Shown here: positions 21,110 to 24,439 of the stretch, in pieces
Layout of the letters: each line of letters opens with the position of its first letter
Numbering within the stretch: the first letter of the stretch is position 1
DNA from: Rhynchobatus australiae
Taxonomy: Eukaryota
Assembly (NCBI GenBank): GCA_034780895.1
Contig: JAUZTB010000017.1
Location: 19,180,816 to 19,244,815, forward strand
Length of the DNA: 64,000 nt
Reading direction: 5' to 3'
Translations under genes and position numbers: made by a program
The notes under the pieces: generated by a model
Told to the model about the DNA's origin: nothing
Database searches by the model: none
Seen by the model: only the letters and a program-made list of their open reading frames with translations

Positions 21110-22672
21110 GTAAGTAATGCTTTTACACACTTTCATCACCTACTCCATGCAGCTTCTGGGAAGTGGCAGGCGGGAATGGGTTGGTGGGGATATCATTTTT
21201 GTTCCACAACTATTGTTCGGTTTCGTTAAAATGTTTTGAGCATGCAGAGCATGATTCTCTCAATGAAGAATACCTGTTAAGGAAAACAGCAGGCTAATCT
21301 GCGAGAAATTTAGTTCGTCCATGTGTAGATTCGTCATAATTCATCAGGTCACATGTTTTAGCAAATCACTTTGTTATTGCTAACCTTTTTAAAATCTATT
21401 TGTAGCATAGAGTCATGGAAACAGAGACCATCATGGCTATGCTGGCTCTTTGGATGAGCAGTCAGCTTGTAATTCAATTTTTTGAAAATAACATGATGTG
21501 TTCTTCATTTAAAGCTCGAGTACTTCTCCCACTCTTTTTTTAAAATCACTTGGGGAATCAGCCTCTACCACTTTTACAGGCAAAGTCTCCCAGGTGCTGA
21601 CAATGATCTAAATCAACAATAATTTTCATTTTGCCATTTGACCTTGTACCAATGATTTTCAATCTATGATTCCAATCTATTCACCCACTCACTGGAGTCA
21701 CTCGAGGGTATAATGTTTCTTGTTGAAAACCTTTCCATTTCAAGGAGGATTGTCCTAAATTTTCCAAATTTTTTAAATAATTGAAATCTTTCAGCCATAG
21801 TAGTATTCCGACAAACCTCCTTTGAAGCCTTCCTGAAATGTAATGATCAGAAATGTCTACCGTATTTCAGGCTAAGGCACAAGCAGTGATTCATAACATT
21901 TTAGCACAATTGCTTTGCTTTTATATGCTATTATTCCCCGTAAAAACAAAAGAAGTCCATTTTATAAAGCTCCTATCATTTATCTAGCCAGTTTTGAGGA
22001 ATTGTAGATATGGACACCTGACTGTACATCAGCATGCCATTTACAATAATATAGTCTTCCCATAATAAATATTACAACATTTTTTTATGCAGGCCCAATT
22101 TCTTAAAAGCTACATTGCCAACTATTGACTTATTTGTTTGGATTATATCAAACAAATTCAGCAAGTATATTTTATCTATTCAAATTATGCAAATAGGAAA
22201 ATATAGCTTATCTTTTTTGTTTAATGAAATCTATTGAAGGACAATTCATGGACTGATAATGTTATCGGGTTGTGCCCTAAACAAAATCATGAAAAGTGAG
22301 AGAATGGTGTACCAAGACTTCCTACTGCGGCCAAGAATGAAGCAGAAAGCCCTGCCATAAGTTTGCTGATGCACAATGATTTTGACTTATAGCGTTACCA
22401 TATAATTATGTCAGTATATTTTCAGACTAATGTGGCTAAGTAATTTTTAGCAATTCTTGTTTTCAGGATTTTTGGTTTGGGGCACAATTCTGTTTTACTT
22501 ATATTACAGCAAAATAAAAATCGCTAGATTTCACAACACCTCTAATTTGCCTCATTCTCTCCCATCCTGCTTTATAATCATAGTGATCTAATCTTACAAA
22601 AAGCAGATTGATTTTTTTGTCCTTTTTTTTATTTTCTCATTTTATTTCTCCTCAATGGATTCTCCACACCAG

Positions 22673-22684
22673 GATGGTGAACAG
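22673..22684 (+). other. TACC2: Candidate 12-nt poison microexon of TACC2 (reads G-W-stop in the TACC frame)
   Basis: About 65-nt AG-free pyrimidine tract, ccAG acceptor and consensus CAG|GTGAGT donor. In phase 1 it reads GGA TGG TGA. Confidence 0.5.
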
Positions 22685-24439
22685 GTGAGTTTCCATTTTA
22701 TAACTGGCTACTGGTCGGTTCATGAAACCACTGATAATTTTCCCCTTCTTTTATGCCAGTTGCCTTACTTCTCTTTGCTGCTTCCCTACTGAAGCATAAC
22801 TAAGAGCTATACATCTGGCTGTGAAGAAACTGTATTTTCTTGTGGTGAAATACCATGGAGCCAGTAGTTGACACCACCTTCCCATGTGTCCATCCTATCT
22901 ATAGTAATTCATGCTAACTACACTTTTCTTTGTTTATTGCAAACCTACAATTCCCTAAACAGTGTACTTAAGAACTATTCCATCAAAATTCCATCAGATT
23001 TCCTTGGACAAGGGCAAAGTTTCTGAATCTTCCATTTAATTTCCTGAATTCTGTGAATAACAAGTTACAAAATAACCACTTCACTTCCAATGTCCCCTTT
23101 TCCTTATCAGATTTATTGCCTTTTAAAATATTTGATTGCTCATCTTCTGTTATTTAAGAAGGATAGTCTGCAATTTGTACTAATACACGGAGATGTATGA
23201 GCAATTTTGCTTTATTTTGCTGTACCCTCTCCTCCCATTTTTCTATCAATAGCCACCTTGACACCCTATTTAGTTAGATGAGCTTGCAAAGGGCATGTGC
23301 AGGGTGGAGATCAGCAGAGGCATGCTTCCTCCTATTGTCACTGTACACATTAAAGATATGTACATTGTTTTTAAAGAAAATTAAACTCCTCTGTATATCT
23401 CTGAGTCTTCCACTTTGATTCTGATTTGATGATTTAAATGTTTCAATTTCATAAGACTGGATTAAATTCAGATATAAATTTTATTATATTGAACAACTCA
23501 AAGCCCAGAAAGCAAAATTTATCACGAATTCAACACATTCTTCCATCTTTCACTCTTGTACAATCATGGTTTGAAGGTAACTACAGTTAACATCATGAAC
23601 TTTTATTTTTGCAGGATGCAATGCTTATTTCAATGCAGAATTGCTGGGGGCATTAATCAGAGTACTAAAATCTAACTTCTGCGGATTACATGATTGTGAT
23701 TGAAACAAAATATAATATTTGGAACTGTGCCAAGGACTGTGACTTCATCTTGGTGGTCCTTGTTCATCTGAGTAGATATATCTGTCCAGGTTGCGCAAAT
23801 CAAATAATGACTCTCACATTTTCTTGTTGTTTTTAGAGTAGAGGGAATAGTTTGCCTTTCTGTTTGGGGCTCTTATTTCTCTTTTTTTGAATATCCTTTT
23901 CATGTGGAGAGGTTGTTGGGAAGCCTCCTTCACTGATTCCTTAAGTAATTTCTTCAGATAATTGCCTAACTAGTGCAAATTAATGCACTATTCCTTTCCC
24001 AATTTTCCCACTTTCTCACTTATACTATTTTACCAGTACTGATATTTTTCTTGCTATTCTATTTGTATTACTGATTTTCTTCAAAATGTCCATACCTTCC
24101 TTTTGATTTGGTAATTCTAACCCCTTTTGAAGTGACAATCCTGTTGCTGCACTGTGTTTCTACCAACCCTGATGTCTTATCCAAATTTCCAAGATTTATG
24201 TGTTCAATAATGATGAGTGTCCAATCTGAGAATGATGCTGTATTCAAAATAAAGACGTGCAGAATTTCAGCAAAAGTTGCTGAATAACAGGAATGTAAAC
24301 CCTGATTATGGAATGTTGAAGCACAAATGTGCGGTCTCTTATCCAGACTCTTTATTTGTTGCCATTTGTCCTTCACTTTTCACTTGTGGGCCTGCTGGTA
24401 GGCCCAGGCTTTCATGGGAAAAATGCTAGTTTTTTTTTC

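What the first reader, a model, noticed from the sequence alone, without database searches (positions are those of the whole stretch)
22600..22690. Candidate 12-nt poison microexon inside the TACC2 coiled-coil coding region
Seen: about 65 nt of AG-free pyrimidine tract, then ccAG|GATGGTGAACAG|GTGAGT, with a consensus donor. The intron is phase 1 (ATA G|), so inclusion reads G-W-TGA, or GKPGW* together with the 9-nt microexon. Its length is frame-preserving, yet it carries a stop well upstream of several exon junctions. Inference: a microexon-size NMD switch, or a way to make TACC2 lacking most of the ch-TOG-binding TACC domain, placed 1.5 kb from a neural-type microexon.
Basis: partly seen in the sequence, partly recalled or inferred. 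Interest (0 to 1): 0.7.

Follow-up and report, generated by a model that had tools for sequence, protein, structure and literature searches.

The report
Unproven stop-carrying microexon in TACC2
An intron of a cartilaginous-fish TACC2 gene holds a well-formed 12-base would-be exon with a stop codon that would likely mark the message for destruction if spliced in, but no RNA yet shows it used and one related species lacks its entry splice site.

Summary
Inclusion would give G-W-stop, 393 nt before the last junction. It and the 9-nt GKP microexon are the only two sites in the window passing a microexon filter. The 9-nt exon is a known neural microexon (human HsaEX0063374, zebrafish DreEX0008613). 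The 12-nt one is intact in two close relatives and lies in a locally conserved block of about 180 nt. Against it: a more distant relative has GG instead of the acceptor AG and a weaker donor; a complete teleost intron has no counterpart; there is no upstream UGC; and RNA of a relative shows 19 skipping reads and no listed inclusion (tissues unknown; the 9-nt exon was not seen either). Best reading (0.45): a lineage-restricted poison microexon, likely repressed through its pyrimidine tract. Main rival (0.35): an unused cryptic or decoy exon. New member of a known kind, unproven.

The parts
19027..19070 (+). TACC2 coding exon A (equivalent of human exon 19, 44 nt), ends in phase 1
   Evidence: spliced to 27231 in RNA of organism A
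21101..21109 (+). 9-nt neural microexon (G-K-P), UGC-rich acceptor; orthologue of HsaEX0063374 / MmuEX0046126 / DreEX0008613
   Evidence: best local match to the teleost GMP microexon; 7 TGC in the 93 nt upstream
22545..22726 (+). Locally conserved intronic block around the candidate
   Evidence: aligned stretch of the organism C contig, loose end upstream and a 44-nt replacement downstream; fewer substitutions in organism A than in three other listed intron pieces
22582..22606 (+). Upstream AGs (22582-83, 22602-03, 22605-06), rival acceptors for a longer stop-bearing exon using the same donor
   Evidence: kept in organism C among listed differences
22607..22670 (+). 64-nt AG-free, pyrimidine-rich tract with UCU/CUC words and no UGC
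22671..22672 (+). Candidate acceptor AG; unchanged in organisms G and A, GG in organism C
22673..22684 (+). Candidate 12-nt microexon; in-frame TGA at 22678-22680
   Evidence: unchanged in G and A, 22674-22684 unchanged in E, 22683 A>G in C; inclusion not seen
22685..22690 (+). Consensus donor GTGAGT, strongest donor-like site in the intron
   Evidence: 3 sites score 5 or more; this one 8.08; no change listed in G, A, C or E
27231..27391 (+). TACC2 coding exon B (equivalent of human exon 20, 161 nt) with a NAGNAG acceptor (27231 / 27234)
   Evidence: distal form annotated in Hypanus isoform X2
29429..31621 (+). Last three coding exons (29429-29535, 30284-30404, 31556-31621); their junctions lie downstream of the candidate stop

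Best explanation
The 12 bases at 22673-22684 have the form of a microexon with an in-frame stop, and are likely spliced into a fraction of TACC2 messages in some tissue of one group of cartilaginous fishes, which would send those messages to nonsense-mediated decay and lower TACC2 output. Shown: the splice sites, the stop 393 nt before the last junction, local conservation in close relatives, absence of the acceptor in a more distant one. Inferred: inclusion itself; repression in most tissues by pyrimidine-tract proteins of the PTBP1 kind (long UCU/CUC-rich tract, no UGC, so probably not an SRRM3/4 target like its 9-nt neighbour); decay rather than a short protein; loss in organism C rather than gain in the lineage of this genome.
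For: Only two sites in the window pass the microexon filter, and the other is a known neural microexon. At its own values no rival in 454 kb of this genome or in 1000 shuffles. Strongest donor-like site in the intron. AG, 12-mer, TGA and donor unchanged in organisms G and A; 11 covered exon bases and donor unchanged in E. Organism A: 5 substitutions in 244 nt across the block against 43 in 763 nt in the three other non-repeat intron pieces listed, Fisher p = 0.024. In C the block aligns while the upstream flank does not. E shares 22683 A with this genome but 22694 and 22695 with C, so the weaker donor of C looks derived, which fits decay in C (inference).
Against: Organism C has 22670 C>T and 22671 A>G (no acceptor AG) and 22683 A>G (one contig, depth 8); 5 of its 12 listed substitutions fall in the 32 nt at and before the candidate, p = 0.039, so this is the least conserved part of the block. 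No inclusion among listed rows in three raw RNA runs and one contig set of organism A, against 2 + 17 + 0 skipping reads and 1 skipping contig. A complete teleost intron has a single strong donor, that of the 9-nt exon, and no significant match to the block (124 of 500 shuffles reach the score). No UGC within 93 nt, though PMC-held preprint 10.1101/2024.09.17.613571 finds UGC in only 74-79% of SRRM3/4 targets. 73 of 1000 shuffles pass the loose filter. G and A are close: 21 critical bases would stay unchanged by chance with probability about 0.3 at 5.6% divergence.
Confidence: 0.45

Rival explanations
1. A cryptic or decoy exon that is never or hardly ever included. The block is conserved for another reason (binding sites that tune the 9-nt microexon or intron removal, or a decoy donor), and the AG is incidental.
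For: Acceptor absent in C while the rest of the block aligns, with substitutions concentrated at the candidate. No inclusion reads. Loose-filter chance rate 73 of 1000. Not in the teleost.
Against: A perfect donor 12 nt after the first AG of a 64-nt AG-free tract had no equal in 454 kb or 1000 shuffles. The RNA test lacked its positive control, since the 9-nt exon was not listed either. The C-specific donor change suggests C is the derived state.
Confidence: 0.35
2. The conserved unit is a longer poison exon that ends at the same donor but starts at an upstream AG (22584, 101 nt, reading V-I-stop; or 22607, 78 nt, reading D-stop). The 12-nt form is a lineage-specific alternative acceptor inside it.
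For: The upstream AGs and GTGAGT survive in C among listed differences. The aligned block starts at 22545, next to CTAAT (22542) and a pyrimidine run before AG 22582-83. The C change at 22585 is silent in that frame. G, A and C have G at 22596, which makes a TGC just before AG 22605-06.
Against: Both acceptors score low on my rough matrix (-1.95 and -6.28, against 1.29 for the candidate; a real acceptor of this gene scored -6.96, so the matrix is crude). A 60-nt U-rich run inside an exon is unusual (general knowledge). Read depth over the block is no higher than other intron bins.
Confidence: 0.12
3. The exon is included and the message escapes decay, giving a short TACC2 that ends G-W right after the ch-TOG-binding stretch and lacks the C-terminal 151 residues.
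For: By colinearity the stop falls at about TACC3 residue 688, the edge of the mapped ch-TOG site 672-688.
Against: The stop is 393 nt before the last junction with three further junctions downstream, which by the usual rule triggers NMD. None of 33 cartilaginous-fish cluster proteins holding exon A ends in G-W; the one truncated protein found ends by intron read-through on a 25-kb contig.
Confidence: 0.05
4. A recursive splice site: the AG at 22683-84 directly followed by GTGAGT would rebuild a donor after splicing to exon A.
For: Exon A end plus GTGAGT forms a strong donor; long pyrimidine tract upstream.
Against: AG 22671-72 comes first; that AG (22683-84) is also absent in C; the intron is only 8.2 kb and vertebrate sites of this kind are few (n = 10 in human, PMC6224609). 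The 12-nt exon does not begin with GT, so it is not an RS-exon.
Confidence: 0.03

Closest known systems
Bak1 neuron-specific microexon 5 (PTBP1-repressed, NMD-triggering; as reviewed in PMC13542418, passage read)
   Same: Microexon-size cassette whose inclusion would bring a premature stop and decay; pyrimidine-rich upstream context.
   Different: Bak1 exon 5 is proven to be spliced and regulated. Here inclusion is unshown, the stop is inside a frame-preserving exon, and the acceptor is absent in one relative.
TACC2 9-nt neural microexon (HsaEX0063374, MmuEX0046126, DreEX0008613; supplement rows in PMC7935315, PMC9303857, PMC12626424)
   Same: Same intron, long AG-free zone, strong donor, frame-preserving length.
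   Different: The 9-nt exon is coding, UGC-rich, SRRM4-responsive and kept from sharks to teleosts and mammals. The 12-nt one has a stop, no UGC and no teleost counterpart.
Conserved poison exons (AS-NMD; PMC13542418, passages read)
   Same: Stop far upstream of later junctions, inside a locally conserved intronic block.
   Different: Described poison exons are typically deeply conserved; this block is detectable only among cartilaginous-fish relatives and its acceptor varies.

Membership tests
Poison exon (AS-NMD) | Inclusion brings a stop more than 50-55 nt upstream of the last junction | tested here: met
   TGA 22678-22680, 393 nt before the last junction
Poison exon (AS-NMD) | Actually spliced into transcripts | tested here: inconclusive
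   No inclusion rows against 19 skipping reads; tissues unknown, 9-nt control not seen, rows hidden by the tool
Poison exon (AS-NMD) | Included isoform stabilised by NMD inhibition | not testable with these tools
   needs an experiment
Poison exon (AS-NMD) | Splice sites and stop conserved across species | tested here: inconclusive
   Kept in G and A; donor kept in E; acceptor absent in C; absent in one teleost
SRRM3/4-dependent neural microexon | 3-27 nt, strong donor, long AG-free zone | tested here: met
SRRM3/4-dependent neural microexon | UGC between pyrimidine tract and AG (present in 74-79% of targets) | tested here: not met
   0 TGC in the 93 nt upstream, 7 for the 9-nt exon
SRRM3/4-dependent neural microexon | Neural-specific inclusion that responds to SRRM3/4 | not testable with these tools
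   no tissue-labelled RNA; human and zebrafish tables searched list only the 9-nt exon for this intron
Recursive splice site / RS-exon | Exon start rebuilds a donor with the upstream exon | tested here: not met
   12-nt exon starts GA, not GT; the zero-length variant depends on an AG absent in C

The most novel reading that the evidence does not exclude
In a clade of sharks or rays one TACC2 intron carries a two-microexon switch aimed at the edge of the ch-TOG-binding stutter: the ancient 9-nt neural exon inserts G-K-P there, and a younger, separately controlled 12-nt exon, perhaps born from a copy of a TACC exon start, puts a stop at the same spot to shut the gene down or cut the coiled coil. 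Its acceptor is present in some relatives and absent in another, so it would be a poison microexon caught being gained or lost.
Probability: 0.25. Interest if true: 0.5.

Novelty: new member of a known kind. Interest (0 to 1): 0.3.

Why it matters
If real, it adds an unannotated off-switch to a microtubule-regulator gene and offers a clean natural experiment on how poison microexons arise or decay: one base (AG against GG) separates related species. It would not change how NMD or microexons are understood. If it is not spliced, it is a reminder that perfect-looking splice sites in conserved intron blocks need RNA proof.

Tried and rejected
RNA holders: no listed holder was on record as RNA; three raw RNA runs came by species label. 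One search was dominated by a repeat at about 19400-19590, so many rows were hidden (41 joints, 27 between-letter rows, 767 loose ends, 2250 pieces not shown). The organism E contig begins at 22674, one base inside the candidate; this start fits no splice branch that I could construct and is not used as evidence. Paralogue on contig C75 (TACC1-like by my reading): its 4,517-nt matching intron (200 N) has no microexon-like site of comparable quality; I did not locate the matching intron of the third paralogue. Homology of the candidate to the teleost GMP microexon: rejected, the best alignment pairs GMP with the 9-nt exon (21 of 500 shuffles; z 4.8 in the sliding scan) and the candidate block is not significant (124 of 500; 168 of 1000). 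Tandem duplication of the 9-nt block or of the exon B acceptor: not significant (263, 786 and 288 of 1000). Proteins: of 120 hits listed from 884, 73 matched my exon A pattern: 69 no insert, 3 GMP, 1 NAGNAG, none with four residues. Literature: no paper holds both TACC2 and microexon in the main text; searches gave nothing on this exon. Supplements searched without a TACC2 hit: PMC7821500, PMC12626420 (one file not searched), PMC12868881; with only the 9-nt exon in this intron among rows seen: PMC12626424, PMC7935315 (7 files not searched), PMC9303857 (6 files not searched); PMC12925949 (11 of 19 places seen, none in this intron). Two papers most likely to list elephant-shark or human microexons were not held, and bioRxiv supplements are closed, so a listed orthologue is not excluded. 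The human intron itself could not be read.

Full report
The gene and intron. The window holds the 3' end of TACC2 of a cartilaginous fish: exon B is 98% identical to annotated TACC2 of Chiloscyllium, Hypanus and Hemiscyllium and belongs to Pfam TACC_C. Exon A (19027-19070, 44 nt) and exon B (27231-27391, 161 nt) have the lengths of human exons 19 and 20 (PMC8087818, parts 1 and 3 of the text read). The intron is phase 1 and 8,160 nt long; RNA of related organism A joins the two exons.

The observation. Inclusion reads G-W-stop, or G-K-P-G-W-stop with the 9-nt exon at 21101-21109. The stop lies 393 nt before the last junction. With a loose filter only the 9-nt and 12-nt sites pass in the window. 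The same filter gives 5 sites in 454,148 strand-bases of 25 other loci and at least one site in 73 of 1000 shuffles of the intron; thresholds set afterwards at the candidate's own values give 0 and 0 of 1000. The site is therefore unusual, but chance is not excluded at the loose level. The matrices are my own approximations.

The neighbour is known. The 9-nt exon aligns with the GMP microexon of a complete teleost intron found in a metagenome contig (L030). GMP appears in 3 of 73 proteins that matched my exon A pattern. Supplement rows list it as human HsaEX0063374 (PSI 0 to 57 on SRRM4 expression; PMC7935315), zebrafish DreEX0008613 (neural PSI 93.6, muscle 0.85; PMC12626424) and mouse MmuEX0046126 (retina-enriched; PMC9303857). 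Among the rows that I saw, none lists a second exon in this intron; several files were not searched.

Conservation is split. Contigs of four related organisms were laid on 22510-22830. G (whole stretch in one piece, 6 other letters) and A (22534-22775, 5 other letters) show no change in the acceptor, the 12-mer, the TGA or the donor. E covers 22674-22708 and is unchanged through the donor. C aligns over 22545-22726, with a loose end upstream and a 44-nt replacement downstream, but carries 22670 C>T, 22671 A>G and 22683 A>G: the acceptor AG is gone and the donor is weaker (8.08 to 5.69). This rests on one contig of depth 8. The table lists 12 substitutions in that piece while another table counts 24 other letters, so identity is 87-93% and an unlisted new AG cannot be fully excluded. 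In A the block has 5 substitutions in 244 nt against 43 in 763 nt in the three other non-repeat intron pieces shown (p = 0.024); those pieces passed an 88% filter and were chosen by the tool. In C the substitutions cluster at the candidate (5 of 12 in 32 nt, p = 0.039). E agrees with this genome at 22683 but with C at 22694-95, which suggests that C is the derived state (inference). The teleost intron has one strong donor only and no significant match to the block.

RNA gives no support and little power. In three raw runs of organism A (about a fifth to a quarter of each read) and one contig set, the skip junction has 2, 17 and 0 reads and one contig; no row with 9 or 12 letters between the exons is among those shown, and depth over the block is at intron level. 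Tissues are unknown and the neural 9-nt exon was not seen either, so the test lacks its control. None of 33 cartilaginous-fish cluster proteins with exon A carries either insert or ends in G-W; annotation would rarely show an NMD isoform.

How it most likely works. If used, the strong donor and long AG-free tract would let the 12-nt exon be defined; the tract is rich in UCU/CUC words and lacks UGC, which points to repression by PTBP1-type proteins rather than activation by SRRM3/4 (inference; 10.1101/2024.09.17.613571, passages read, finds UGC in 74-79% of targets and not strictly required). Inclusion would place a stop ahead of three more junctions and so trigger decay, as for Bak1 microexon 5 (PMC13542418, passages read). 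A truncated protein is less likely. It would lose about 145 of 201 TACC_C positions but, by colinearity with TACC3 758-838 (gapless extension upstream assumed), would end at about TACC3 residue 688, just after the mapped ch-TOG site 672-688 (PMC11921806, passages read).

Rivals. An unused cryptic or decoy exon in a block conserved for other reasons explains the C alleles and the missing reads (0.35). A longer poison exon from AG 22582-83 or 22605-06 to the same donor survives in C and also carries an early stop, but has weak acceptors (0.12). A stable short protein (0.05) and a recursive site (0.03; PMC6224609, passages read) fit poorly.

Novelty and verdict. Poison microexons are a known kind. 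This is a plausible new member, limited to some cartilaginous fishes and unproven as an exon. Interest 0.3.

Noticed in passing
window 22673-22684; L003 (paralogue exon B start): The candidate 12-mer matches the last intron base plus first 11 exon bases of the paralogue's exon B at 11 of 12 positions. It could be a relic of a duplicated exon start; the flanks show no significant similarity (288 of 1000 shuffles).
   Followed up: partly
window 21101-21109: By colinearity the 9-nt neural microexon inserts G-K-P at about TACC3 residue 688, the edge of the coiled-coil stutter that binds ch-TOG. It may retune TACC2-ch-TOG binding in neurons; untested.
   Followed up: partly
window 27228-27233: Exon B has a NAGNAG acceptor; the distal form drops one Glu and is annotated in Hypanus isoform X2. 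The paralogue's exon B starts at the distal position.
   Followed up: yes
window 22575-22620; L030 about 2449-2491: A weak match to a teleost intron stretch about 90-130 nt before exon B that holds ACTAAC/CTAAC words and an AATAAA. It beat 1000 of 1000 shuffles against a 200-nt target but not against the whole intron (124 of 500); unresolved.
   Followed up: partly
window 22596: Organisms G, A and C all have G here, making a TGC just before AG 22605-06; this genome has A.
   Followed up: no
window about 19400-19590, 24470-24520, 26940-27110: Unmasked repeat fragments that draw hundreds of RNA reads in organism A.
   Followed up: no
L030 1690-1720: The teleost intron has a second pyrimidine- and TGC-rich acceptor-like stretch upstream of its 9-nt exon, with no strong donor after it.
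   Followed up: no
L020 + strand 2506-2535; L024 - strand (scan position 6048): Two further microexon-like sites (30 nt and 11 nt, AG-free zones of 70 and 82 nt) turned up in the background scan of neighbouring DNA on the same contig.
   Followed up: no
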